A DNA stretch of 64,000 bases from Methanobacteriota archaeon (GTDB lineage: Archaea > Thermoplasmatota > Poseidoniia > Poseidoniales > Thalassarchaeaceae). Under the pieces are notes generated by a model that was given only the letters and a program-made list of their open reading frames with translations, did no database searches and was not told the DNA's origin. Made by a program: the position numbers and the translations under genes. Positions 3,573 through 46,299 of this stretch are shown in pieces; positions within the stretch are counted from its first letter, which is position 1, and each line of letters begins with the position of its first letter. The stretch covers positions 5,232 through 69,231 of the forward strand of contig PSPX01000003.1 of the NCBI GenBank assembly GCA_004195715.1, in the 5' to 3' direction.

Positions 3573-5224
3573 ATTTCCAGTCCACATGCCGCCTTCATCA
3601 GACCGAGGAAAGGCGGGCTGGGTCTGCCCGGGCGCGATTTGAACTCGGGATGGTACTGGGTCCCGACAAAATAGGGGTGCTCGTCGAGTTCCATTATCTC
3701 GCAGCGCTGTCCAGTCTCGTCCTTGCCCACATACCTCAGGCCGGCACTTTCAATCTGCTCGATTAGTTCGGGATTGACCTCGTAGCGGTGGCGGTGGCGC
3801 TCATCTACGTGATCGGCGCCGCCATACAGCCGACGCATCTTGCAGTCATCAACGAGGAACGGAGTGGGTTTTGTCCCCAGACGCATGGTGCCTCCCATAT
3901 GGGTCTTGGAAATCTCCGGCATGAAAACTACAGCCTGGTGAGGGGTGTCTTCGTCAAACTCTGTTGAGTTCGCTCCTTCCATCCCGAGGACGTTGCGGCA
4001 GAACTCGATGGTAGCTACCTGTAGACCTAGGCAGACTCCGAGGTACGGCACCAAGTTCTTCCTTGCGAACTCGGCGGCCTTGATCTTGCCTTCTATCCCT
4101 CTGACTCCGAACCCCCCGGGGACAAGAATGCCGTTTGCACCTCTGAGGAGTTCCCATGCCCCCGCGTGGGCCCTGGGGTCGGAGGCAGCAGTTGCATCAT
4201 CTAGGTCGGCTGATTCTATCCAGTCGATGACGAGCTTTCGATTGACTGCATAGGAAGAGTGCTGCAGGGCCTTGATGACGCTCAGGTACGAGTCCGACAG
4301 GCCGGTGTATTTCCCCACCATAGCGATGTGAACCTCCTCCTCGACGTTGTCAACGCGGTCTGCCATCGCCTTCCACTCAGCGAGCAGAGGACGTTCTGCG
4401 ACTAACTCGAAGCCGAAGCACTCGGCTAATACTTCACTGACACCCTGTTCCTCAAACATGAGAGGAACTCGGTAAATGTTCGAGGAGTCGTGAGCGGACA
4501 CCACTGCCTCTTTGGAGACATGACAGAACTCGGCGAGTTTCGAACGCGTATCATCGTGCAGTGGGTTTGCCGATCTGCAAACGAGTATGTCGGGGATGAT
4601 TCCTAGCCCGCGCAATTCCTTCACGGTGTGCTGAGTCGGTTTGGTTTTCTGTTCACCGACCGGCCCCATCACAGGGACCAGACTGACATGGACGAAGCAG
4701 ATGTTATCCCTGCCAACTCTGAACTGAAACTGTCTGAGAGCTTCGATGAAAGGAGCACTTTCGATGTCGCCAACAGTCCCCCCTAACTCTATCACACAGG
4801 CGTCGGGAGTACCGTTGTTACCATCACTAGACTGGTGCGCGACCCTCTCAATCCACTCCTGAATCTCATCGGTGATGTGGGGGATAACTTGTACGGTCTT
4901 GCCGAGATAGTCGCCCCTCCGTTCGCGCTCGATTACGGTGGAGTACACCTTACCTGTGGTGATGTTGTTGTCCCTTGTCAGAGCTATGTCTAGGAATCTC
5001 TCGTAGTTACCTAGGTCTAAGTCAACTTCTCCCCCGTCATCGAGCACGAATACCTCCCCGTGCTCGAACGGACTCATGGTCCCAGCATCGATATTGAGAT
5101 AGGGATCTATCTTCACCGAAGTGACGCGCAGTCCAGCGGATTTGAGCAGGACGCCTATGCTGCTCGCAGTGACTCCCTTACCGAGTCCTGACAGCACACC
5201 TCCCGTGACCACGACATATTTCAT
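3569..5224 (-). CDS. pyrG: CTP synthase
   Basis: 551 aa. [25 protein letters not shown]-terminal synthetase domain, and a C-terminal glutamine amidotransferase with GVCLGLQ. Confidence 0.95.
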
Positions 5225-5332
5225 GCAATCAACGGGGTTTGAAGCCGTTGAGCCTCACATATCAAGGTTGGCTATGCGACTCGGTGGCCCGAACTACTCC
5301 ATGTTCAAGTATCGTCTGAATAACCGGAGTGC

Positions 5333-6292
5333 ATGGCCGAACCCCCCGGAGACAGAATTCTGGTAACCGGTGCTCTGGGGCAAATCGGAACTGATCTGGT
5401 TGGGGCCTTGAGGGATCGGCACGGTAGTGACTCGGTGATCGCCTCGGATGTTCGCGAGGTGCCTAGGCACCCATTGCTTGAGGACGGTCCGTTCCGATTA
5501 CTCAGCGTACTAGACGGAGATGGCATGGACTCGATGGTAAGGGAGGAGGAAGTCGGTGAGATATACCACCTCGCTGCGATTCTTTCGGCCACCGGAGAGA
5601 AGAAACCTGAACTGTGCCAGAGGGTCAACGTCGGCGGCACCATCACCGTGTTGGAGACCGCCAAGGAACACGGCCTGAGAGTATTCTCACCGTCTTCGAT
5701 AGCGGTCTTCGGCCCCGACGCTCCGAGAACCGCTCCGCAAGTGACGCCACTCAATCCTACCACCACCTACGGCATGACCAAAGTCACTGGGGAGATGATG
5801 GCACTGAACTACTGGAAGCAGTACGGCGTGGACGCCCGAGGAATTCGGTACCCAGGTTTGATTTCTTGGAAATCACCACCTGGAGGGGGGACTACCGATT
5901 ATGCAGTAGAGATCTTCCATGCCGCACTCAATGAGAGGCATTACGACTGCTTCGTTGGCCCCGATACGAGACTTCCCATGATGTACATCGACGATGCCAT
6001 CAGGGGTACGATAGAACTGATGGAGGCCCCCACTGAATCTATTGGACCGTCTAGGGGCGGATACAACCTCTCTGGGATGTCTTTCACCGCTGGGGATCTG
6101 GCTAATGCGATATCGGAGAGAGTGGATGGCTTCACCTGCGAGTTCAAGCCCGACGAGCGCCAACAGTACGCCGACTCATGGCCCGATGATGTTGACGATT
6201 CGACAGCCCGTGAGGATTGGGGCTGGAAAGCTGAATACGACTTGGGTCGAATGGTCAACGAGATGTTGGACAGACTGAATGATCAGTCCTGA
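5333..6292 (+). CDS. tdh: SDR-type NAD-dependent L-threonine 3-dehydrogenase (UDP-glucose-4-epimerase-like family)
   Basis: 319 aa. GALGQIG Rossmann motif, YGMTK catalytic YxxxK, and a C-terminal ...ADSWPDDVDDSTAREDWGW motif typical of short-chain TDH. Confidence 0.6.
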   Translation: MAEPPGDRILVTGALGQIGTDLVGALRDRHGSDSVIASDVREVPRHPLLEDGPFRLLSVLDGDGMDSMVREEEVGEIYHLAAILSATGEKKPELCQRVNVGGTITVLETAKEHGLRVFSPSSIAVFGPDAPRTAPQVTPLNPTTTYGMTKVTGEMMALNYWKQYGVDARGIRYPGLISWKSPPGGGTTDYAVEIFHAALNERHYDCFVGPDTRLPMMYIDDAIRGTIELMEAPTESIGPSRGGYNLSGMSFTAGDLANAISERVDGFTCEFKPDERQQYADSWPDDVDDSTAREDWGWKAEYDLGRMVNEMLDRLNDQS

Positions 6293-7896
6293 TCCTCCAT
6301 CTCACTCTGCCAGTCAGGAGTCTGAGCGTCTTGCTTGGCCCAGAGCACATCATCAATCCTCAGCACGCTGTTGGCAGCCTCGGTGGCTCCCGCAAGAGCA
6401 TGGTGAGCGACGAACAGTGGGTCGAATACTCCGACCTTATCCATTCTCACCTTATTCCCTGACGCCACATCCATCCCTATCCACGCACCTTCCTCAGCGG
6501 ATTCAGTCTGGGCTGCAGACAACTCGAGAATCTCATCTATTGGGTCGAGTCCGGAGTTCTCGGCGAGAGTTCTAGGCACAATCTCGAGAGCAGCCGCGAA
6601 AGCCTCTATGGCTAACTGTTCACGACCGGCCTGACTTGGAGCGAAGGCTCGCAGATGCCGAGCTAAGTGTGTCTGAGTAGCACCTCCTCCAGGTAGCATG
6701 CGTGAGTCGATTGAGAGTCTGTGGGCAACCCCTAGGGCGTCGTCAAAGGTACGCTTGACCTCTTCTCTGACAGAAGGAGAGGAACCCCGTATCAGAATCG
6801 TAACCGCTCCTCCTTCGGGACCTTCGATGTGAGTGTGCTTGACTCCAGAGTAGGAACACTCCGAGCGGGAACTGTAAGTGCCGATGTCCTTGTCTTTTAC
6901 CCTCTTGGCGTCGCGGACCATCACAGAGCCGGTGATTCTTGCCAATCTCTCAAGGTCCTCGCGATCGTAACGCCGGTACGCCGTGATACCGGCATCGGTC
7001 AGCATGGTCGTAGCGTCTTCGGCGATACCGTCGCGGACTATTAGAAGGTCGACACCGAGTGAGACCAGAAGATCGACCTGCTCACGCATGCGCTCCCTAG
7101 CCCGCTCGTGAAATCCTCTCAATGCATCCGTACTGGTGACTTCGATTGAGGCCTCGAAATCAAGTTTGGGACTCTCCATACCTCCATCGATGATGGCTAT
7201 CCGGCCTCCGTCGGATTCGGCCACTGATGCCATGTCCATCCTTGATTTAGGTAGAACGAGGCCGTGTATGACCTCAGAGTCCAACACACCACCGTCCTTG
7301 ATTAGTAGACGTTTCACCCGTAACCTCTCGAGATCTTGGCCACCGTTTTCGCCGGCGAGTGCCTCAGCGGCCTCGATAGCCAACTCCGTCAGGTGTCGAC
7401 TGACAGATGAGTCGACCTTCCCCGAAATCGAAGTGGCTACAGCTGCACGCATCTCGAAACCATCCTTGGGAATGCGTGAGATTCTCTCCATCTCATCGAG
7501 CGCCTCTGCCAGAGCAATCTGATACCCGTTCATAATAATTGACGGGTGCACACCGGAGCGAACCAGCTCAAGTGCGTTCTGCAGCAACTCGGAGGTCAGG
7601 ATTACCGTGGTCGTGGTGCCATCGCGAGCAGCACGATCCTGAGCCGACGCGGTTGAAATCAACAGTCGAGCAGTAGGATGCTCCACTTTGGCAGTCTCCA
7701 GCACGGTGACGCCATCGTTGGTTATCGTCGTCGAACCACCGTCCTCCACCAACATCTTGTCCAGGCCGCGCGGACCGAGCGTCGAACGGACCGCTTCTGC
7801 AAGCGCAGATGCGGCCTTGACGTTGTCGACCAGAGCTGAGCGCCCGTGCAGGCGGTCGGTGTCCTCTAGGGTCACATCATGCTCTGACTCGACCAT
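6283..7896 (-). CDS. ths: Thermosome subunit (group II chaperonin)
   Basis: The ORF runs to 8037, but the conserved N-terminus (MVESEHD...NVKAASALAEAVRSTLGPRGLDKML) begins at Met48 (ATG complement at 7896). The length upstream of the ...RTTLGP motif matches Thermoplasma thermosome. Equatorial and apical domain motifs are present throughout. Confidence 0.9.
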   Translation of the reverse strand: MVESEHDVTLEDTDRLHGRSALVDNVKAASALAEAVRSTLGPRGLDKMLVEDGGSTTITNDGVTVLETAKVEHPTARLLISTASAQDRAARDGTTTTVILTSELLQNALELVRSGVHPSIIMNGYQIALAEALDEMERISRIPKDGFEMRAAVATSISGKVDSSVSRHLTELAIEAAEALAGENGGQDLERLRVKRLLIKDGGVLDSEVIHGLVLPKSRMDMASVAESDGGRIAIIDGGMESPKLDFEASIEVTSTDALRGFHERARERMREQVDLLVSLGVDLLIVRDGIAEDATTMLTDAGITAYRRYDREDLERLARITGSVMVRDAKRVKDKDIGTYSSRSECSYSGVKHTHIEGPEGGAVTILIRGSSPSVREEVKRTFDDALGVAHRLSIDSRMLPGGGATQTHLARHLRAFAPSQAGREQLAIEAFAAALEIVPRTLAENSGLDPIDEILELSAAQTESAEEGAWIGMDVASGNKVRMDKVGVFDPLFVAHHALAGATEAANSVLRIDDVLWAKQDAQTPDWQSEMEDQD

Positions 7897-8027
7897 GCTG
7901 AGTCGCCGAATGACAGTCTTGCTTTGAACCCGTCCGTTCGGCGCGACATAGCCCGATTCTCGTGCATGCGTGACCGTGCGGTTCATATACGGCAGTACTG
8001 TCGTACTATACAACCTCAGGTTGAGTA

Positions 8028-8636
8028 GTGGTATCAATGGCTGACAGCGAGCGTGATGAGTGGGCTGACGACATGTTCGCCGAGATGGCGAGGATGTTCG
8101 AGCAAATGGGGATGCCCATCGACGTCAAGGCGCTTGAGGAGATGATGAAGAAGGTCATGGATCAGTTTGAGCAGATGGGCATTGACCCTACCAAGATCTC
8201 TCACTCACAATTCAAGGTCGAATCCAACACTGATCCCGAAGAACTGCGTCGGATGATGGATTCGATGATGAACAGCCCTGGGGGATTCTCAGACTTGTTC
8301 AAGAAGATGGGCGTCAATATCGAGGTAGAGAGTTCAGTCGAGCAGGCGGAGGCAGAGGTAGAGGAGCCCGAAGAGCACGAGGTCTCAGATCTGCCTGACG
8401 AGGATGTCTATGTGCATGGCAACACAATGGCTGTCACCATAGACATCTCTAGGATCCTCGACGTCAGGTCCGAGGACATCGAACTTGTACTCAGTAGTGG
8501 CGGCGAGGTGCTGCAACTGATGAGGCGAACCCAAACACGGCCTCTCAAGCGCTTCATACTCCCAGATGCAGCGAACCAGATTCGTGAGTGGCAACTGAAC
8601 AACGGCATCCTAGACATTACATTCGATTTGGCATAG
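8028..8636 (+). CDS. Small heat-shock protein-like: Met-rich N-terminal region plus Hsp20/alpha-crystallin-like C-terminal domain
   Basis: 202 aa. The C-terminus ...VHGNTMAVTIDISRILDVRSEDIELVLSSGGEVLQLMRRTQTRPLKRFILPDAANQIREWQLNNGILDITFDL fits the Hsp20 ACD beta-strand pattern. The N-terminus is methionine-rich and amphipathic (MFAEMARMFEQMGMP...EEMMKKVMDQFEQMG...RRMMDSMMNS). It sits 15 bp upstream of dnaK. Confidence 0.55.
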   Translation: MVSMADSERDEWADDMFAEMARMFEQMGMPIDVKALEEMMKKVMDQFEQMGIDPTKISHSQFKVESNTDPEELRRMMDSMMNSPGGFSDLFKKMGVNIEVESSVEQAEAEVEEPEEHEVSDLPDEDVYVHGNTMAVTIDISRILDVRSEDIELVLSSGGEVLQLMRRTQTRPLKRFILPDAANQIREWQLNNGILDITFDLA

Positions 8637-29044: not shown

Positions 29045-29090
29045 GATAAACCGACGCTTAGAAAAGCGATTCTAGTTTCCCAGATTCCGC

Positions 29091-39689: not shown

Positions 39690-39941
39690 TTAGTTTTCGT
39701 CCAAGGCCCCAGGTCTCAGTTGCCAGACACAGATTTCGTAGCGACCGGAGAGGGCACCGCCACGTTTTGTCGTTGCGACCTTCATGATGTCCTTGTCTTT
39801 AGACAGGACGTTCCCCAGTTGCTGGGGAGTAGTCCCATGACGCATGGTGGAGTTCACGTGCTCAAGAATCTCTGTCGTGTTGGCTTCTCCTCTGTCATCC
39901 AAGAATTTTTTTATCTTCTGTCGTAGTCTGGTTGTCCTCAT
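39690..39941 (-). CDS. Small winged-helix DNA-binding protein (83 aa)
   Basis: Basic N-terminal helix (RLRQKIKKFL), TTEILEHV, and a putative recognition helix/wing. Paralogous to the adjacent 88-aa ORF and to the N-terminus of the 873-aa protein. Confidence 0.4.
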   Translation of the reverse strand: MRTTRLRQKIKKFLDDRGEANTTEILEHVNSTMRHGTTPQQLGNVLSKDKDIMKVATTKRGGALSGRYEICVWQLRPGALDEN

Positions 39942-39951
39942 TTAATTCCTC

Positions 39952-40218
39952 CTATTTGTTGTCGGGCTTAGCACGCTCATGGTGCTGTACCCACTCCTTG
40001 GTCGCCCATTCCGAGAGTGGGGGGGTACTGCCGGTCATTCCGCTCTTGCGAACAGTTCCGATGCGGACGATACTCGTGTCTGTCTCCATCAGTGATGCTA
40101 GATCCAAGCTTCCAGAGTAGCCTTCCTGATCACTCAGCCAAGTTGCGATCTCAGCACTGTTCCTAGGCTGCTCAGAGATGTATTTGCGAATGATAAGTCG
40201 GATTTTTTCCACTTCCAT
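39952..40218 (-). CDS. Small winged-helix DNA-binding protein (88 aa), tandem paralog
   Basis: KIRLIIRKYISEQPRNSAEIATWLS... aligns with the 83-aa neighbour. Confidence 0.4.
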   Translation of the reverse strand: MEVEKIRLIIRKYISEQPRNSAEIATWLSDQEGYSGSLDLASLMETDTSIVRIGTVRKSGMTGSTPPLSEWATKEWVQHHERAKPDNK

Positions 40219-40472
40219 CTGTCTCCCTCAAGCATACTCTCGGACCCGGCAGTCGGCCCGATGCGCATAGGATGGCGGGCGCTGATATAACCGTTCTGCA
40301 CGAAATCACACCTTTTCGTTACAAATAGTTGCTAGAAATGAGGGAGTTTTCAGGTTTGAACCAAGTGTGGAAATGAAACTGATATATTCTCCATAGGAAA
40401 TATGTAATTAACTGTAACTAAACAACATAATTTAATACATCAACTTTAGTAAGATGTATTGAGAGGTGGCGA

Positions 40473-43094
40473 GTGGTGCCAAATGAATCCCCTGAGCCAC
40501 TGAAACCCGATTATTCAGGCAGTGCTTGGAAAATCAGGAGCAAGCATCGCAGGAGACTCCTTGACCGGCTAACTGAGGGCGGTGACACCGTCAGTGTGCT
40601 GGCTAGGGATGTTGAACTCAGGGTCCCGCACGCCTCAGCAGAGATAAAACGATTGAGAAACGATGGACTGGTCTCCAGCGACCTATCTGCTGGGAGTCGT
40701 GGAGCTAGGATTCACCTGACCGAATTGGGCTGGGAGTCAGTGAGTGCTGACGAGTGGTCCAGGGCATCCGAGGCCTCTCCCTTGCCCGAAGACTCTAGCA
40801 TGTGCTGCCTGCTGTTTCGTGATGGTCCAAACCTCCTGCTTGGAGTTATGGAGCCTTGCGACTCCCCATTACTGTTGATTCCGGATCGCCCCCCTGTTTC
40901 GATTCTGGGCAATTCTGGTTCCACCGGAAGCGATGGGGTCCTTTGGAGCTGGGCGGTACTCAGGGAGAGGGAACCCCGGTGGTTCGACCTCTCGTCAATG
41001 GAGCCCAAGCCAAGCCCTCCGCCTCCTTCCGATCCGGAGAACATAGCGGCTTACTCGGGACAGCGCACTGTCGTCGGGATAATCCGCGCTAGGCTGCTTG
41101 ACGCCGAGCGACCGATTGCCATAGCGCCGGGTCAGTGGTTCGGGTCTCCGGACTTCCGGCCCGCGCCCCCGTTGCCTGAGGGCGGCTATCATCGGGGCCC
41201 GTGGGTACTTGGTGCGTGCCACGAGATGTCACCGGAGATTAGGCCGAAGGAACCAGTGGTCGCTGTGATGGAAGACAGGCTCCCCCGCTCCATGCTGCTT
41301 AGGACAGCGAGGAATAATTCTCTGGTCATCGCGGATCTCGGAGGGCTGGACACCGAGGGTGACCCGTACCCATTGGCAGCCCTTGACCCATGGATCGAAA
41401 GGGCCCACCCGCGTCTGAGCGATGCTGAGAGGAAACGGAGACTAGGTGCCCTGAAGGACAGGGTCAGCAAGGCGAGAAAGGTCAGGACCGAGGATTCCAC
41501 CTGGCGTCGATTCAGACAAGATTGGGGTGAGTCGGTGTTCACCGAGGAAGGAGATTCAATCAGGATCCTTGACCTAAGGGGGCTGGGTGACACGGCGGCT
41601 GAGGCATTAGTGAGATGGGCAATCAATGACGATGGCAAACGCCCGCTGACTATCGAAGTCGGGGTTGATATGCCCGAGGAACTAATCTCTTCAATCGCTT
41701 CTCACTCCAATCTCCGAATGGCTCTCCTCGAGGGTGAAGCATCTGCGTTCTCCAGCTTCGACATACTGGATGCTGATCCCCTGAGGCCGCTGCCTTGGCT
41801 GCGCCTGACAACTAGGGGGGGGAGGGTACTGCCAATGCGACTGGTCGATCCAGCCCAGGTCCCTGAGTTTTCAGAATCCGATGAACCGGTCGTACTAGAG
41901 TGGGAATCCCTAGGCATCGACATCGAGTTGGTCGGGAATATCGAAGAGGGCCACCTCTCAGTCATCAATTCAGCTGTAGTTCAATATCCCACAGGCAATG
42001 AGGAGTGGGCCAACCAAATGGAAGCCAGATACCCAATTGCGGCTTGGATAGCATCTCCCGCTAGGACTAGATGGCCACGCTGGCAGAGACTCAGGAACCG
42101 ACTCAGTCCGGAGTGGCTAGCACTCATGAATCTGGACGACCTCCCGCTGGAGAGGCTGTCAGAGGTCGCCGACGAGGCACCCGACTCGGTTTTGGAAGAA
42201 TTCTCCAAGAAGATTACCAACAGATTCAGACAGGATTCCGATGCAGCACTCAGAACGAGACCAGCGACGGATCCGAAGCAAGCAACCCGCGGAGCCGCTT
42301 GGGTAGCAGCTCAACTGCTGTCAAACGCCCCCTGGCTACCTGAGCACATGCACTCGGACTTGCTCCATTGGGCACTGGAGGCATGGCTCTCCGAGCCCCC
42401 AAGCGATTCGATGCCTGCACTGCAGGGAGTCGCGTGGCTTTATTCTCCGGGCCGCAGCGATGAATCCAGTTTCAGACCAATACTTGAGGGGATTCGGAGC
42501 AAGGGAAAGGAATCTCCTTCTGGCCATGACCTGCACACTTGGGCCAGCCTAGCAGACATGATGCTGGACGATTCGAAGATGAATCTCGATGAATTGGAGA
42601 GAATACTGGAACTACCTCCCGGCTGGTGGGCACCGATTTCCGTCAAGATACTCTCTGGGCTATTGGAGGAGGAGGATTCTACAGATTGGGTCATCGCCAA
42701 TACCGTCCCCTGGTGTGCGGCAGTGCTGCGTCCGATAGGCGATTGCTGTCAGGCACCCGGACTCCGTTCCTACGAGCATCCCGGATGCGACTCAGAACTG
42801 TACTCCCGCCTTTCCCGGAGGTTGAGGGGCAGGCGTGAGCGTCAGGGCATGCCCGATACCGCTGAACCACTGCTCGATTTACTCGACGCCCTAGACGCGG
42901 TGAATGATGGCAAATCTCCTTCGCCGGGAAAGACGCATCCCCTATCGGGGTGGCTCGCCCAGCCGTTGGAGAAATGGCCGGAGTTCTCTTCGTCCGAGAT
43001 CATGGACGGCGATGTTCACATCACTGAGAGGCTGCTCTTGAGGAGCTCAGGGTATCATCCAAAAATCGTCCCTTCAATCTCGATTTCGGGTTGA
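40473..43094 (+). CDS. Large orphan protein (873 aa) with N-terminal winged-helix domain
   Basis: GTG start preceded by GAGGTGG. N-terminus KIRSKHRRRLLDRLTEGGDTVSVLARDVELRVPHASAEIKRLRNDGLV is the same wHTH family as the two small upstream proteins. The remainder has no recognizable catalytic motif, with a Cys cluster near the C-terminus (WCAAVLRPIGDCCQAPG...HPGC). Confidence 0.5.
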   Translation: MVPNESPEPLKPDYSGSAWKIRSKHRRRLLDRLTEGGDTVSVLARDVELRVPHASAEIKRLRNDGLVSSDLSAGSRGARIHLTELGWESVSADEWSRASEASPLPEDSSMCCLLFRDGPNLLLGVMEPCDSPLLLIPDRPPVSILGNSGSTGSDGVLWSWAVLREREPRWFDLSSMEPKPSPPPPSDPENIAAYSGQRTVVGIIRARLLDAERPIAIAPGQWFGSPDFRPAPPLPEGGYHRGPWVLGACHEMSPEIRPKEPVVAVMEDRLPRSMLLRTARNNSLVIADLGGLDTEGDPYPLAALDPWIERAHPRLSDAERKRRLGALKDRVSKARKVRTEDSTWRRFRQDWGESVFTEEGDSIRILDLRGLGDTAAEALVRWAINDDGKRPLTIEVGVDMPEELISSIASHSNLRMALLEGEASAFSSFDILDADPLRPLPWLRLTTRGGRVLPMRLVDPAQVPEFSESDEPVVLEWESLGIDIELVGNIEEGHLSVINSAVVQYPTGNEEWANQMEARYPIAAWIASPARTRWPRWQRLRNRLSPEWLALMNLDDLPLERLSEVADEAPDSVLEEFSKKITNRFRQDSDAALRTRPATDPKQATRGAAWVAAQLLSNAPWLPEHMHSDLLHWALEAWLSEPPSDSMPALQGVAWLYSPGRSDESSFRPILEGIRSKGKESPSGHDLHTWASLADMMLDDSKMNLDELERILELPPGWWAPISVKILSGLLEEEDSTDWVIANTVPWCAAVLRPIGDCCQAPGLRSYEHPGCDSELYSRLSRRLRGRRERQGMPDTAEPLLDLLDALDAVNDGKSPSPGKTHPLSGWLAQPLEKWPEFSSSEIMDGDVHITERLLLRSSGYHPKIVPSISISG

Positions 43095-43454
43095 AAGCCA
43101 GTAAATATCTGACCGAGGGGTTCTTGACCACCCCCCATGGCCGATGTTTGCCCGAGCTGCAACACCGTGGCGACGAAGCCCCCCGCTGGAGGAATAGGAT
43201 GAATCACGGTACCAAGTTCGGGTCACCACTTGCCGAAGACCAGTGTGACCAGCTGCAACGGAATGATCACTGGAGCAAATCAAGTGGCCGGATTGTGTTA
43301 GGTCCCCCGATGACCGGAAGGAATGACTCAAGGGACTACCCCACAGTTCGACAGACGTCCCGGGGTGGGTCAGGCGCCCGAGCTTTGCTGTGAAGGACCG
43401 CCGTTACGCCCCGGGGCACACACACTCCATTTGTCCAAAAAAGGCGGGAATCTG

Positions 43455-44471
43455 ATGCACGACATCGGCCTAATCGGCGGCACCTTTGACCGCTTCCATG
43501 CCGGACACCTATCGCTGATGGAGGCCGGTCTGTCCAAATGCTCCTTCATTGAGGCCTGGCTCACCGCAGATAGCCTTGCTCACTCGAAGGATCCGCGGGT
43601 GAATTCATGGGGTACAAGGGCTCAGGAGATGAAGGAGGCGTTGGGGGACGATGCTGGCAGAGTTAGATTCCATACCCTCGAAGATAACCACGGACCCGCA
43701 CCGGCGCATGCTGATGCCACAGCGATTATTTGCACCGGCGAGACCCGCGCCGAGTGTGAGGAAATTAACCGACTAAGAGAAGGCAGCGACCTGCCACCGC
43801 TACACATCATCAGCGTAGGACACGTACTCGCATGGGACGACAAGCCGATATCCAGCTCTAGAATCAGAGCAGGAGAGATCGACCGTAACGGAAAACCATG
43901 GATTCCAAACTCGATTAGGGCGGGCAGAGTGGTCTTGACATCCCAGATCGAAGCAGAACTCAAGGAGCCCTTCGGTCAGTTGGTTTCTGGCCCGGAAGAC
44001 AATCCCTCCGTTGCAATGACAGAAGTCCTCACCCATGTCGAAGGGGAGTCGGGGCCGGTCATCGCTGTCGGCGATGTGACAGTCCGCACTCTGCAGGACC
44101 TCAATCGGCCAGCCGACATCGCCCTCATCGATGGACTCACTAGGAGGGAGCCTTGGGAGGGCGCAGACGGAATCGACTCGTCTCTGTATGACAAGACCCT
44201 GCAGTGTTCCAGCCCTGCTGGTTCCCTGACGCCTTCGTTGCTGGAGGCCTGTGAGCGGGCAATGAAATCCTGGAAGGAAGGGCGGTTAACCCATCTAATT
44301 CAGGTCGAAGGTGAGGAAGATCTAGCCCCACTTATTTTGCATCCACTGGCTCCCTTGGGTGCTGTTGTGCTATATGGCCAACCAGGAAAAGGAGTCGTAG
44401 TCAGATGGTGTGGAGAGGACGCCAAACAGCGTTGTCGCAGACTGCTCAGCGAATTCGTTCCCGCCGAATGA
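43455..44471 (+). CDS. Bifunctional CoA biosynthesis protein: archaeal-type phosphopantetheine adenylyltransferase fused to a DUF359-type GTP-dependent dephospho-CoA kinase
   Basis: Conserved start MHDIGLIGGTFDRFHAGH (nucleotidyltransferase H-x-G-H) at ATG 43455. C-terminal half has VIAVGDVTV...ALIDGLTRRE...QVEGEEDLAPL...VVLYGQP blocks of DUF359 / archaeal DPCK. Confidence 0.65.
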   Translation: MHDIGLIGGTFDRFHAGHLSLMEAGLSKCSFIEAWLTADSLAHSKDPRVNSWGTRAQEMKEALGDDAGRVRFHTLEDNHGPAPAHADATAIICTGETRAECEEINRLREGSDLPPLHIISVGHVLAWDDKPISSSRIRAGEIDRNGKPWIPNSIRAGRVVLTSQIEAELKEPFGQLVSGPEDNPSVAMTEVLTHVEGESGPVIAVGDVTVRTLQDLNRPADIALIDGLTRREPWEGADGIDSSLYDKTLQCSSPAGSLTPSLLEACERAMKSWKEGRLTHLIQVEGEEDLAPLILHPLAPLGAVVLYGQPGKGVVVRWCGEDAKQRCRRLLSEFVPAE

Positions 44472-45060: not shown

Positions 45061-46299
45061 TCAGAGTTGACCCTGCAGGTTGTATCTGCCGAGCGCGGCC
45101 TCGGCAATCATAGGTTCACTCTCACTCATTGTAGCGATGGCGTCCACCGCCTTGGGTATGGCCGAGTTGACCTGTTTACTCCTACCGCCGCGGCCCTTGC
45201 TGACGTTCCTAGCCATAATCAGCCCGAGCGTATCGAGTTCGTTGAGCAGCGAAGATATCCTCCTAGGGGTGAGCGGCTCGACACTGATCTTCATGCATGC
45301 TTCGGCATAAGTCCGGTAAGTCTCCCCAGTGGAGATGTTCCTCAGGCCGTTATCTTCGTTCATCCTAATTGAGAATAGCAACAACTTTTGGTGCAGTGGC
45401 AGAGTCTTCAGCACAGGAGTAACTTGGTCGTACTCCAACTGACTCTGCGCCAATCTGACGTGCCTGGGGTCTACAACCTTCTGAGCTCGCTGCTCTGCCT
45501 TCTGCACTGAGATGCGTAACAGGTCGAGCGCTCTGCGCGCGTCCCCGTGCTCCTGTGCGGCCAGTGCCGAGCAGAGTTCGAGCACACCAGAATCGAGGAC
45601 CCCCTCGCGAAGACCGGTGCTAACACGCTCGGTTAGGATGTCCTGAATCTCTGGAGCCCCGTAGGGGTGGAAGACGACATCCTCCTGACTGAGCCTCGAG
45701 CTGACCCGAGGATCGAGCTGCTGAGTGAAGTGCAGATCGTTGCTGATCCCGATGAGACAGCAGCGGGCGTTTTTCAGAGAGGTATTCAAGCTGGTCAGGT
45801 TGTACAGCAAACCATCTCCAGCTCTGGCCACGAGATTGTCGATCTCGTCCAGCACTAGAATGTGCACCCCTCCTGCCCGATCCATCCTCTCAATCAGAAC
45901 TTCGAGAACCCTGTCGGTGGGCCAACCGGTGAATGGGATTGGAGTATCTCCCCGTCGAGCGAGTTGGGAGGCGATACTCTGAACGACGCGATACTTGGTG
46001 TCCACGACACGGCAGTTGATCTCGTAGGTCTCAACGCTCTGCCCCATCTCCTTGCCCTTGTCGAGAAGCTGCCCTAAGACGAATCTTGTGACCACGGTTT
46101 TGCCTGACCCGGGTACTCCATAGAGCAGCATGTTCGAAGGGATGTGGCCATTCAAGGCATCAACCATATTGCGTACCAAAGCATCCACTTCGTGTTCTCT
46201 GTGAGGCAGGGTAGATGGCTCGAAGGCGTGATCAAACGCTCGCCTGTCGACGAAGAGACTGTCTTGCCCGAGAATCTTTTCGAAAATGTTTCCTTCCAT
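45061..46299 (-). CDS. cdc6: Orc1/Cdc6 replication initiator
   Basis: 412 aa. LLYGVPGSGKT (Walker A), VLDEID (Walker B), sensor regions, and a C-terminal winged helix. Confidence 0.9.
   Translation of the reverse strand: MEGNIFEKILGQDSLFVDRRAFDHAFEPSTLPHREHEVDALVRNMVDALNGHIPSNMLLYGVPGSGKTVVTRFVLGQLLDKGKEMGQSVETYEINCRVVDTKYRVVQSIASQLARRGDTPIPFTGWPTDRVLEVLIERMDRAGGVHILVLDEIDNLVARAGDGLLYNLTSLNTSLKNARCCLIGISNDLHFTQQLDPRVSSRLSQEDVVFHPYGAPEIQDILTERVSTGLREGVLDSGVLELCSALAAQEHGDARRALDLLRISVQKAEQRAQKVVDPRHVRLAQSQLEYDQVTPVLKTLPLHQKLLLFSIRMNEDNGLRNISTGETYRTYAEACMKISVEPLTPRRISSLLNELDTLGLIMARNVSKGRGGRSKQVNSAIPKAVDAIATMSESEPMIAEAALGRYNLQGQL

What the first reader, a model, noticed from the sequence alone, without database searches (positions are those of the whole stretch)
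43095..43454. 360-bp GC-rich non-coding gap with ~60-bp periodic degenerate repeats
In a compact genome where most intergenic gaps are under 130 bp, 360 bp of GC-rich sequence lies between the 873-aa gene and the true start (ATG 43455) of the PPAT/DPCK gene. It contains the motif GGAATGA-N-TCA three times at ~61-bp spacing (ggatgaatcacgg ~43197, ggaatgatcactgg ~43260, ggaatgactcaaggg ~43320). AGCTGCAAC occurs twice (43155, 43250). A strong potential stem CCCGGGG...CCCCGGGG sits at ~43358-43415. The only ORFs here are an in-frame upstream extension of the PPAT gene (43323 ATG) and low-complexity reading frames. This suggests a structured ncRNA, a degenerate repeat array, or iterated regulator binding sites.
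Basis: seen in the sequence. Interest (0 to 1): 0.55.

Follow-up and report, generated by a model that had tools for sequence, protein, structure and literature searches.

The report
Four-hairpin H/ACA pseudouridylation guide RNA
The "empty" 360-bp gap encodes an unannotated small RNA of about 275 nt, conserved in every Marine Group II archaeon examined, which most likely directs conversion of specific uridines to pseudouridine in the catalytic core of the large ribosomal RNA; this is a known kind of RNA that had not been recognised in this uncultured lineage.

Summary
The window comes from a Marine Group II archaeon (Poseidoniales, Thalassarchaeaceae). A block of about 310 bp (43112-43425, + strand) is conserved upstream of the PPAT/DUF359 gene in all 80 related genomes fetched, more strongly than the protein itself.

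It folds into four consecutive hairpins, each with a lower stem, internal loop, 6-bp upper stem and kink-turn. In 64 sequences 95% of cells are paired, against 31-45% when partners are slid. 25 pairs show compensatory changes.

The GA and UGA dinucleotides are invariant in all four hairpins.

The last three hairpins match Rfam HgcG/Pab40 (RF00064) at E about 1e-4 in two clades, below the gathering score. ACA boxes follow hairpins c and d at 16 and 15 nt.

The internal loops are complementary to Marine Group II 23S rRNA. Hairpin d targets helix 69 (E. coli U1915, 11 bp). Hairpin b targets the Pab40 motif-1 site. Hairpin c targets the A-loop U2555 or U2586. Hairpin a targets the U2604/2605 region, weakly.

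The in-frame "N-terminal extension" is not coding. This is a new, divergent member of a known family, with an extra hairpin and two ACA-less hairpins.

The parts
43112..43128 (+). Putative promoter (BRE-like ACCGAG plus TATA-like TTCTTGAC) of the sRNA gene. The variable spacer 43129-43149 follows.
   Evidence: The block ACCG(A/T)(G/T)GGGTTC(T/A)T is conserved in 64 genomes. A 22-nt spacer follows that varies in sequence but has no indels. The spacer region folds poorly (mean z -0.74). The same ACCGA-N3-5-TT motif lies 41 nt upstream of two tRNA genes in the window and upstream of the 23S rRNA of Marine Group II contig L199. This part is inferred, not shown.
43150..43423 (+). Predicted mature multi-hairpin box H/ACA guide sRNA (about 275 nt; the ends are inferred).
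   Evidence: Conserved in 80 of 80 loci. Four hairpins are joined by linkers of only 2-7 nt. Frequent G-U pairs fix the + strand. HgcG matches.
43151..43222 (+). Hairpin a. Lower stem 43151-57 with 43216-22. Pocket TGCAAC 43158-63 and ACCAA 43211-15. Upper stem 43164-69 with 43205-10. Kink-turn GA 43172-73 and T-GA 43200-02. No ACA box follows.
   Evidence: Pair 49-117 switches A-U to G-C (35 vs 29 sequences). Pair 62-104 switches G-C to A-U (43 vs 13). GA and UGA are invariant. The upper stem is 6 bp. The predicted target AGGU-UU-GUUGCU lies in Marine Group II 23S (3+6 bp). It is weak: 41 of 300 shuffled guides do as well.
43226..43287 (+). Hairpin b. Lower stem 43226-32 with 43281-87. Pocket CCGAAGA 43233-39 and AGCAAAT 43274-80. 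Upper stem 43240-45 with 43268-73. Kink-turn GA 43247-48, C-stem 43249-51 with 43259-61, bulge AAT plus GA 43262-66. No ACA box follows.
   Evidence: 12 of its 16 pairs have compensatory changes. Fold z is -2.6. It aligns to HgcG model positions 58-123. The target is GCUUGC-UA-CUUCG in Marine Group II 23S.
43290..43353 (+). Hairpin c. Lower stem 43290-97 with 43342-49. Pocket TTAGGTC 43298-304 and ACTACCC 43335-41. Upper stem 43305-10 with 43328-34. Kink-turn GA 43312-13 and bulge AAT plus GA 43322-26. ACA box 43351-53.
   Evidence: Covariation in the lower stem (pairs 197-263, 198-262, 199-261) and in pair 212-249. Fold z is -3.0. It aligns to the middle hairpin of HgcG. The ACA lies 16 nt from the upper stem.
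43357..43420 (+). Hairpin d. Lower stem 43357-66 with 43408-17. Pocket GGGTCA 43367-72 and GTTAC 43403-07. Upper stem 43373-78 with 43395-402. Kink-turn GA 43380-81 and bulge TGT plus GA 43389-93. ACA box 43418-20.
   Evidence: Compensatory pairs 281-330 and 294-319. Weak Pab160 match and HgcG match to model positions 200-268. The ACA lies 15 nt from the upper stem. 11 contiguous Watson-Crick pairs flank U-A of the helix 69 loop, GUAAC-UA-UGACCC.
43455..44471 (+). PPAT (cytidylyltransferase-like) / DUF359 gene with its true start at ATG 43455. It is a neighbour, not part of the RNA.
   Evidence: Pfam PF01467 plus PF04019. Most homologs are 337-340 aa and start with MH. The upstream frame is not conserved.

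Best explanation
The gap holds the gene for a box H/ACA guide sRNA with four tandem hairpins. It is probably transcribed from its own promoter (about 43112-43128) starting near G43150, and it ends just after the terminal ACA (about 43423).

By analogy with characterised archaeal H/ACA RNPs, each hairpin would bind L7Ae at its kink-turn and the Cbf5-Nop10-Gar1 pseudouridine synthase on its lower stem and pocket. The two strands of each internal loop pair with 23S rRNA on either side of an unpaired U-N dinucleotide, and that U is isomerised to pseudouridine.

Predicted targets, in E. coli numbering:
- Hairpin d: U1915 in helix 69.
- Hairpin b: the position equivalent to 2496, which is P. abyssi pseudouridine 2588.
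- Hairpin c: U2555 in the A-loop, or U2586.
- Hairpin a: the 2604/2605 region.

Shown here: conservation, secondary structure with covariation, invariant kink-turn dinucleotides, ACA boxes on hairpins c and d, similarity to RF00064, and complementarity to Marine Group II 23S rRNA. Inferred: expression, RNA ends, protein binding, and that the modifications actually occur.
For: - Organism and conservation. The flanking protein's named homologs are Thalassarchaeaceae/Poseidoniales. The 3' anchor GGGGCACA sits 20-92 nt upstream of PPAT in 80 of 80 genomes. The roughly 310-nt block is conserved while the flanks are not.
- Structure. 69 pairs in 13 helices give 95.0% paired cells, against 31-45% when partners are slid. 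25 pairs have double changes. The covariation score is 0.268 against at most 0.052 for slid controls, and 0 of 500 shuffles reach it. RNAalifold independently found hairpins b-d. Mean fold z is -2.6 to -3.0 for b-d.
- H/ACA hallmarks. Upper stems are 6 bp, matching the 5-6 bp rule of PMC2377435. GA stems have 9-10 layers, close to the 10 of PMC4652768. Lower stems are 7-10 bp. GA and UGA are invariant in all four hairpins. ACA lies 15 and 16 nt from the pocket in hairpins d and c.
- Family similarity. RF00064 HgcG (Pab40) scores 22 bits (E = 2.6e-4) in the window and 23 bits (E = 1.3e-4) in the MGIIb-O1 locus L027. Both match model positions 58-268, with the three hairpins in the same order.
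- Hairpin d target. The predicted target sequence exists as the helix 69 loop of archaeal 23S rRNA, including Marine Group II contig L199. It gives 11 bp, and 2 of 300 shuffled guides do as well.
- Target offsets. The candidate targets of hairpins b and c lie at the same offsets from helix 69 as Pab40 motif 1 (2588) and the two published proposals for motif 2 (2647, 2678). These are L199 positions 2580, 2639 and 2670.
- Guide-target match. Guide CGAAG pairs with target CUUCG in Marine Group II. The Rfam consensus CGAGG pairs with CCUCG, which is the form in most other archaeal 23S loci fetched.
Against: - The Rfam score is far below the gathering score (22-23 bits against 77). No family reaches gathering score in the window or in 20 related loci.
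- Hairpins a and b have no ACA/ANA box at the expected place in any of the 64 sequences.
- The hairpin a target is statistically weak: 41-71 of 300 shuffled guides do as well. No Marine Group II 16S rRNA was available to scan.
- The hairpin c target is ambiguous. With the window's own guide, both candidates need mismatches or a 3-nt unpaired stretch.
- The 23S sequences used come from other Marine Group II genomes, not from the window's genome.
- There are no expression data. A clear oligo-T terminator is absent in the window, and T4 occurs within 25 nt in only 30 of 80 loci.
Confidence: 0.85

Rival explanations
1. A cis-acting leader or riboswitch of the PPAT/DPCK (coenzyme A pathway) mRNA: a structured 5' UTR that senses a metabolite or protein and controls the downstream gene.
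For: The RNA lies on the same strand, 20-92 nt upstream of PPAT, in 80 of 80 genomes. The window has no strong oligo-T terminator between the RNA and the gene.
Against: The architecture is four autonomous H/ACA-type hairpins with kink-turns and terminal ACA boxes. It matches the HgcG family. The loop sequences that are invariant are exactly those complementary to rRNA. No riboswitch family matches beyond noise. 30 of 80 loci have a T-run just after the ACA box.
Confidence: 0.05
2. Part of the gap (43323-43454) encodes an N-terminal extension of PPAT, as some public gene calls have it.
For: An ATG at 43323 is in frame. Database proteins of 359-384 aa carry a similar peptide, M(N/T)xGTTPQxDxRPGVGQAPE...RYAPGHT.
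Against: Most homologs are 337-340 aa. The open frame reaches 130 nt in only 16 of 80 loci, and it stops before the RNA in 24 of 80. Indels are not multiples of three (alignment columns 202, 218-219, 285, 316). Substitutions are compensatory across stems, not synonymous. Conservation extends 170 nt further upstream across all frames.
Confidence: 0.02
3. A different conserved RNP RNA (SRP 7S RNA or RNase P RNA) that Rfam misses, or a novel structured RNA that only resembles H/ACA guides.
For: The size of about 300 nt, deep conservation and kink-turns also occur in archaeal RNase P RNA. Short strings resemble SRP helix 8 (CCGGAAGG) and RNase P CR-V (GAAUGACU...CGACAGA), as recalled from memory.
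Against: No SRP or RNase P match appears even at E <= 10 on short stretches. The covariation-supported fold is four independent hairpins, with no long-range helices such as P1/P4 or helix 5. The CCGGAAGG string is a variable apical loop.
Confidence: 0.03
4. A degenerate tandem DNA repeat, or iterated binding sites for a DNA-binding regulator such as the upstream 873-aa protein.
For: A short motif recurs about every 60 bp.
Against: TRF finds no array. Outside the kink-turn nucleotides the units share no sequence. Base-pair covariation and G-U pairs show selection at the RNA level on one strand. The upstream gene differs between clades while the RNA is kept.
Confidence: 0.02

Closest known systems
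Pab40 / Pf7 / Afu4 / HgcG (Rfam RF00064): the three-motif box H/ACA sRNA of Thermococcales, Archaeoglobus and Methanocaldococcus
   Same: Hairpins b, c and d align in the same order to model positions 58-268. The pocket sequences are similar (CGAAGA / GCAA; GGUCCCC...ACCC; GGGUCAG / GUUAC). The predicted targets coincide with Pab40 motif 1 (23S 2588), the two proposals for motif 2 (2647 or 2678) and motif 3 (2016, helix 69) (PMC2377435). The upper stems are 6 bp, each hairpin has a kink-turn, and an ACA follows the last hairpin.
   Different: The score is only 22-23 bits against a gathering score of 77. An additional 5' hairpin (a) has no counterpart in the match. The ACA after the hairpin equivalent to motif 1 is missing, and the next hairpin follows after 2-3 nt. 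The organism is a mesophilic, uncultured marine lineage.
Haloferax volcanii sR-h45: a double stem-loop H/ACA RNA
   Same: One RNA guides both the helix 69 pseudouridines and the pseudouridine between helices 90 and 93 (H. volcanii 1940/1942 and 2605; PMC7075261). These correspond to hairpin d and to one of the two candidate targets of hairpin c.
   Different: sR-h45 has two hairpins. Its helix 69 pocket leaves UVUN unpaired and makes two pseudouridines. Here the pocket pairs with U1917, so only U1915 is presented in the typical way. An ANA/H box is needed in sR-h45, whereas hairpins a and b here have none.
[quoted passage not shown]
   Same: These guides have degenerate or absent ANA boxes and rely on the kink-turn hairpin and the pocket strands (PMC4652768). 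In that respect they resemble hairpins a and b.
   Different: The Pyrobaculum motifs have lost the lower stem. Hairpins a and b keep lower stems supported by covariation, and they are embedded in a multi-hairpin RNA.
Pab35 (Pf6) motif 2 and eukaryotic snoRNAs that guide the pseudouridine equivalent to E. coli 2604/2605
   Same: Hairpin a's best target (L199 U2690) is the neighbour of P. abyssi pseudouridine 2697, and corresponds to the U2698 position that PMC2377435 describes as often modified in eukaryotes.
   Different: No sequence similarity was detected. The complementarity is short (3+6 bp) and not significant on its own.

Membership tests
Archaeal box H/ACA guide sRNA | Hairpin-pocket-hairpin motif: a lower stem of about 7-9 bp, an internal loop of 5-11 nt per strand, and an upper stem of 5-6 bp. 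| tested here: met
   There are four such motifs, with lower stems of 7, 7, 8 and 10 bp, loops of 5-8 nt and upper stems of 6 bp. They are supported by covariation in 64 sequences. The criteria are from PMC2377435.
Archaeal box H/ACA guide sRNA | A kink-turn or K-loop (tandem sheared G-A pairs) in the apical part, about 10 stacked layers from the pocket, which binds L7Ae. | tested here: met
   The pattern 5'-GA-[C-stem] ... [C-stem]-NNU-GA-3' is invariant in all four hairpins. The C-stem of hairpin b covaries. There are 9-10 layers from the closing pair to the second G-A pair (rule from PMC4652768). L7Ae binding itself cannot be tested here.
Archaeal box H/ACA guide sRNA | An ACA/ANA box 14-16 nt 3' of the base of the upper stem. 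| tested here: inconclusive
   Met for hairpin d (ACA at 15 nt) and hairpin c (ACA at 16 nt). Not met for hairpins a and b, where CC-G or UCA/UGA/UAG sits at that place in all 64 sequences. PMC7075261 reports that the ACA is dispensable for typical single stem-loop guides but that ANA is needed in a double stem-loop guide.
Archaeal box H/ACA guide sRNA | Bipartite complementarity of the pocket strands to rRNA flanking an unpaired U-N. | tested here: met
   Hairpin d: 5+6 Watson-Crick bp on the helix 69 loop (2 of 300 shuffled guides do as well). Hairpin c with the MGIIb-O1 clade guide: 8+7 bp on the A-loop (1 of 300). Hairpin b: 4+5 bp at the Pab40 motif-1 site. Hairpin a: 3+6 bp, weak. The 23S sequences come from other Marine Group II genomes, and 16S was not available.
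Archaeal box H/ACA guide sRNA | Expressed as a stable small RNA associated with Cbf5, Nop10, Gar1 and L7Ae, with pseudouridine present at the targets. | not testable with these tools
   No transcriptome, RNP or modification data were available.
Rfam RF00064 HgcG (Pab40) | A covariance-model score at or above the curated gathering score (77 bits). | tested here: not met
   22.0 bits in the window and 23.0 bits in L027. No hit appears at gathering threshold in the window or in 20 loci. The E-values of 1.3-2.6e-4, the same hairpin order and the same targets argue for distant homology. By Rfam's rule it is not a member.
Archaeal SRP RNA / RNase P RNA | A match to the family covariance models, and long-range helices (SRP helix 5/8; RNase P P1-P4). 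| tested here: not met
   No match appears even at E <= 10. The covariation supports only local hairpins.

The most novel reading that the evidence does not exclude
A four-motif H/ACA RNA would exceed the one to three motifs described so far for archaea. Its two 5' motifs would work without any ACA/ANA box while keeping full lower stems. That implies a mode of Cbf5 loading that depends on the kink-turn/L7Ae and on the neighbouring ACA-bearing hairpins.

In addition, the invariant linkage to the PPAT/DPCK gene (80 of 80 genomes) might reflect a second, cis-regulatory role through read-through transcription.
Probability: 0.2. Interest if true: 0.55.

Novelty: new member of a known kind. Interest (0 to 1): 0.4.

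Why it matters
- Marine Group II archaea are among the most abundant planktonic archaea and are uncultured, so their non-coding RNAs are essentially unannotated. This gives them a first rRNA-modification guide RNA.
- It predicts three to four pseudouridines in the peptidyl-transferase centre and helix 69.
- It explains a conserved "gap".
- It corrects a recurrent mis-annotation: N-terminally extended PPAT proteins in public databases are translations of this RNA gene.
- It shows that the helix 69 / domain V multi-hairpin guide (Pab40, Afu4, sR-h45) extends to Thermoplasmatota-related plankton in a form that Rfam thresholds miss.
- The ACA-less internal hairpins are natural test cases for the debated requirement for the ACA box.

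Tried and rejected
- An Rfam gathering scan of the window and of 20 related loci found nothing in the region. Only E-value scans of short stretches revealed HgcG.
- TRF found no tandem repeat.
- The whole-gap fold is not significant (z = -0.29 on the + strand, +2.0 on the - strand). Only the individual hairpins are.
- SRP RNA and RNase P RNA were considered because of short similarities recalled from memory. They were rejected for lack of model hits and of long-range helices.
- My first target guess for hairpin c was the P-loop region, GGGUAGU-UU-GAC. That sequence is absent from all fetched archaeal 23S rRNAs (the L199 sequence shows GGGCAGUUUGGGUGGGG there).
- An alternative hairpin b target at L199 U2694 (7+3 bp) was rejected. 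It needs pairing by guide positions that vary among genomes, whereas the U2580 site uses only invariant positions.
- RNAalifold's pairing of columns 81-84 with 104-107 in hairpin a was replaced by 59-64 with 102-107, which has G-C to A-U covariation.
- A 5' hairpin ('HP0', 43113-43142) is weak (z = -0.74) and has no consistent partner columns. It was reinterpreted as promoter plus spacer.
- Long-range pairing of GGGGUUC with GAAGCCCC in the apical region of hairpin a is not compensated in the L067 clade.
- Marine Group II 16S primer sequences recalled from memory failed to identify Marine Group II contigs. A neighbouring aIF6 gene was used instead.
- A viral-contig scan for the hairpin d core gave no match.
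- A literature search for H/ACA RNAs in Marine Group II returned no paper.

Full report
**Observation.** The 360 bp between the stop of an 873-aa ORF (43094) and ATG 43455 of the PPAT/DUF359 gene contain only short or low-quality ORFs. The three motif copies are at 43197, 43260 and 43320, 63 and 60 nt apart. The strict motif GGAATGA-N0-1-TCA occurs only here in the 64-kb window: 2 matches, with 0.36 expected. The GC-rich stem at 43357-43417 is real. The gap is not richer in GC than its flanks. There is no tandem DNA repeat. The duplicated AGCTGCAAC is a coincidence, because its second copy lies in a non-conserved loop.

**Organism and conservation.** Homologs of the downstream protein are named Candidatus Thalassarchaeaceae or Poseidoniales, that is, Marine Group II archaea. 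Most are 337-340 aa and start at the methionine encoded at 43455. The longer database entries carry a "conserved" extension. A scan of one genome per species returned 261 relatives, of which 80 loci were kept. In all 80 the string GGGGCACA lies 20-92 nt upstream of the PPAT start. An alignment of the upstream 420 nt shows a block of about 310 nt that is far better conserved than its flanks, even where the PPAT proteins are only 51-60% identical. That pattern indicates an RNA gene rather than a coding extension. The in-frame open stretch reaches 130 nt in only 16 of 80 loci and ends before the RNA in 24 of 80. Indels are not multiples of three.

**Structure.** RNAalifold on 64 distinct copies found three hairpins with 19 compensatory pairs. 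I added a fourth hairpin (a) and the kink-turn stems by inspection and tested the whole structure:
- 69 pairs in 13 helices, with 95.0% of cells paired against 31-45% when the 3' partners are slid by 1-3 columns.
- 25 pairs with changes on both sides.
- A covariation score of 0.268 against at most 0.052 for slid controls, reached by 0 of 500 shuffles.

Hairpins b, c and d fold better than shuffled sequence in essentially every genome (mean z -2.6 to -3.0). Hairpin a is weaker (-1.2). Many G-U pairs fix the + strand.

Each hairpin has a lower stem (7, 7, 8 and 10 bp), an internal loop, a 6-bp upper stem and then a canonical kink-turn. The unbulged strand reads ...GA followed by the C-stem. The bulged strand reads C-stem, three nucleotides ending in U, then GA. 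These GA and UGA nucleotides are invariant in all 64 sequences. That explains the period of about 61 nt: it is the length of one hairpin unit.

**Family.** At gathering thresholds Rfam finds nothing. On short stretches, RF00064 HgcG (also called Pab40, a multi-hairpin box H/ACA sRNA) matches 43226-43416 at 22 bits, E = 2.6e-4. It matches the MGIIb-O1 locus L027 at 23 bits, E = 1.3e-4. Both hits cover model positions 58-268, hairpin for hairpin. Pab160, a single-hairpin H/ACA RNA, weakly matches hairpin d. The geometry fits published rules for archaeal H/ACA motifs:
- Helix H2 of 5-6 bp, and ANA 14-15 nt from the target (PMC2377435).
- A 14-16 nt range for that distance, and about 10 layers in the GA stem (PMC4652768).

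ACA follows hairpin d after 15 nt and hairpin c after 16 nt. Hairpins a and b have no ACA/ANA in any genome.

**Targets.** From the pocket of hairpin d (5' strand GGGUCA, 3' strand GUUAC) I predicted the target GUAAC-UN-UGACCC. A metagenome scan for GTAACTATGACCCNNNTAAGGTAGC returned at least 120 archaeal 23S loci, in which this is the helix 69 loop. One of them, L199, is a Marine Group II contig. Its neighbouring aIF6 gene is 85% identical to that of Candidatus Poseidonia. It carries a 23S-5S unit that is unlinked from 16S. Scanning that 23S gave the following:
- **Hairpin d.** 5+6 Watson-Crick pairs around U2006, which is E. coli U1915. Two of 300 shuffled guides do as well.
- **Hairpin b.** 4+5 pairs around U2580 (GCUUGC-UA-CUUCG), using exactly the invariant guide positions.
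- **Hairpin c.** With the MGIIb-O1 clade guide, 8+7 pairs around U2639, the A-loop (E. coli U2555). One of 300 shuffled guides does as well. The alternative is 4-5+4 pairs around U2670 (E. coli U2586).
- **Hairpin a.** 3+6 pairs around U2690, in the E. coli 2604/2605 region. This is not significant on its own (41 of 300).

These four target sequences are identical in the Marine Group II-type 23S loci. GUUGC at the hairpin a site is specific to them.

The offsets from helix 69 match those in P. abyssi. Motif 3 of Pab40 targets 2016. Motif 1 targets 2588 (+572, against +574 here). The two published proposals for motif 2 of Afu4/Pf7 are 2647 and 2678 (+631 and +662, against +633 and +664 here). 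U2678 is the site modified in Haloarcula. So hairpins b, c and d are the counterparts of Pab40 motifs 1, 2 and 3, and they inherit the same motif-2 ambiguity. The guide CGAAG pairs with CUUCG in Marine Group II. The Rfam consensus CGAGG pairs with CCUCG, which is found in most other archaeal 23S loci fetched. That is consistent with guide-target co-variation, though this step is an inference.

**5' part.** The conserved ACCG(A/T)(G/T)GGGTTC(T/A)T (43112-43127) is followed by a spacer that varies in sequence but has a fixed length, up to the first stem. The region folds poorly. The same ACCGA-N3-5-TT motif lies 41 nt upstream of two tRNA genes in the window and upstream of the L199 23S rRNA. 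I therefore read it as a BRE/TATA-type promoter, with transcription starting near G43150. This is inferred, with about 60% confidence.

**Mechanism.** By analogy with characterised archaeal H/ACA RNPs (PMC2377435, PMC7075261), L7Ae binds each kink-turn. Cbf5-Nop10-Gar1 binds the lower stem, the pocket and, where present, the ACA box. The pocket strands clamp 23S rRNA, and the unpaired U is isomerised. Hairpin d pairs with U1917, so only U1915 is presented in the typical way. This differs from Haloferax sR-h45, which leaves UVUN unpaired and modifies both uridines (PMC7075261). Whether the ACA-less hairpins a and b are active is open. PMC7075261 reports that the ACA is dispensable for typical single stem-loop guides but that ANA is required in a double stem-loop guide.

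**Comparison and novelty.** This is a divergent member of the Pab40/Pf7/Afu4/HgcG lineage of multi-hairpin H/ACA guides, and it is related in function to sR-h45. Three things differ:
- An extra 5' hairpin makes four motifs. [quoted passage not shown]
- The internal ACA boxes are lost.
- The linkage to the PPAT gene is invariant.

No paper in the searchable library mentions H/ACA RNAs in Marine Group II. I classify it as a new member of a known kind. Interest is moderate (0.4). It is useful for annotation and for predicting rRNA modification in an abundant uncultured lineage, and it has a modest architectural twist. It is not a surprise in kind.

Noticed in passing
window 29050-29066 (+), 57199-57183 (-), 43112-43128 (+); L199 about 40 nt upstream of the 23S rRNA: A shared motif, ACCGA-N3-5-TT(T)AGA / TTCTTGA / TTACTCAT, lies 38-41 nt upstream of two tRNA genes, the sRNA and a Marine Group II 23S rRNA. 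It may be the BRE/TATA promoter consensus for stable-RNA genes in Marine Group II archaea.
   Followed up: partly
proteins P0001, P0002, P0022, P0025, P0067, P0085; window 43323-43454: Public gene calls give PPAT an N-terminal extension of about 40 aa (MNxGTTPQSDxRPGVGQAPE...RYAPGHT). This is a translation of hairpins c and d of the sRNA gene, and is a recurrent mis-annotation.
   Followed up: yes
window 45064-46299 (-): A Cdc6/Orc1 replication-initiator gene lies 0.6 kb downstream of PPAT (Pfam Cdc6_lid, Cdc6_C, AAA). A replication origin with ORB repeats may be nearby; I did not look for one.
   Followed up: no
window 40473-43094 (+): The 873-aa ORF directly upstream of the sRNA has no Pfam match. 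It is present upstream in the closest relatives but not in other clades.
   Followed up: no
window 39690-40472: Another large gap of about 780 bp lies between the class-I aldolase gene and the 873-aa ORF. It holds only small ORFs of 60-90 aa on either strand and has no Rfam hit at gathering score.
   Followed up: no
L199 (metagenome contig Ga-type, 13 kb), 23S at about 5150-8250: In this Marine Group II contig the 23S rRNA is followed by 5S and has no 16S gene on either side. It is flanked by aIF6 and other protein genes, so the rRNA genes are unlinked, as in Thermoplasma.
   Followed up: partly
window 43139-43147 and 43462-43470: A perfect 9-nt inverted repeat (GGCCGATGT / ACATCGGCC) joins the putative promoter spacer and the first codons of PPAT. 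The first arm is not conserved in relatives, so this is probably chance.
   Followed up: partly
A2 columns 225-236 (loci L027, L028, L031, L032, L035-L037, L039, L040, L043, L056-L059, L062, L068): Most MGIIb-O1 clade loci carry a 12-nt insertion that lengthens the apical C-stem of hairpin c (L075 lacks it). All of them, including L075, carry guide changes (G204, A255) that give near-perfect 15-bp complementarity to the A-loop of 23S rRNA.
   Followed up: partly
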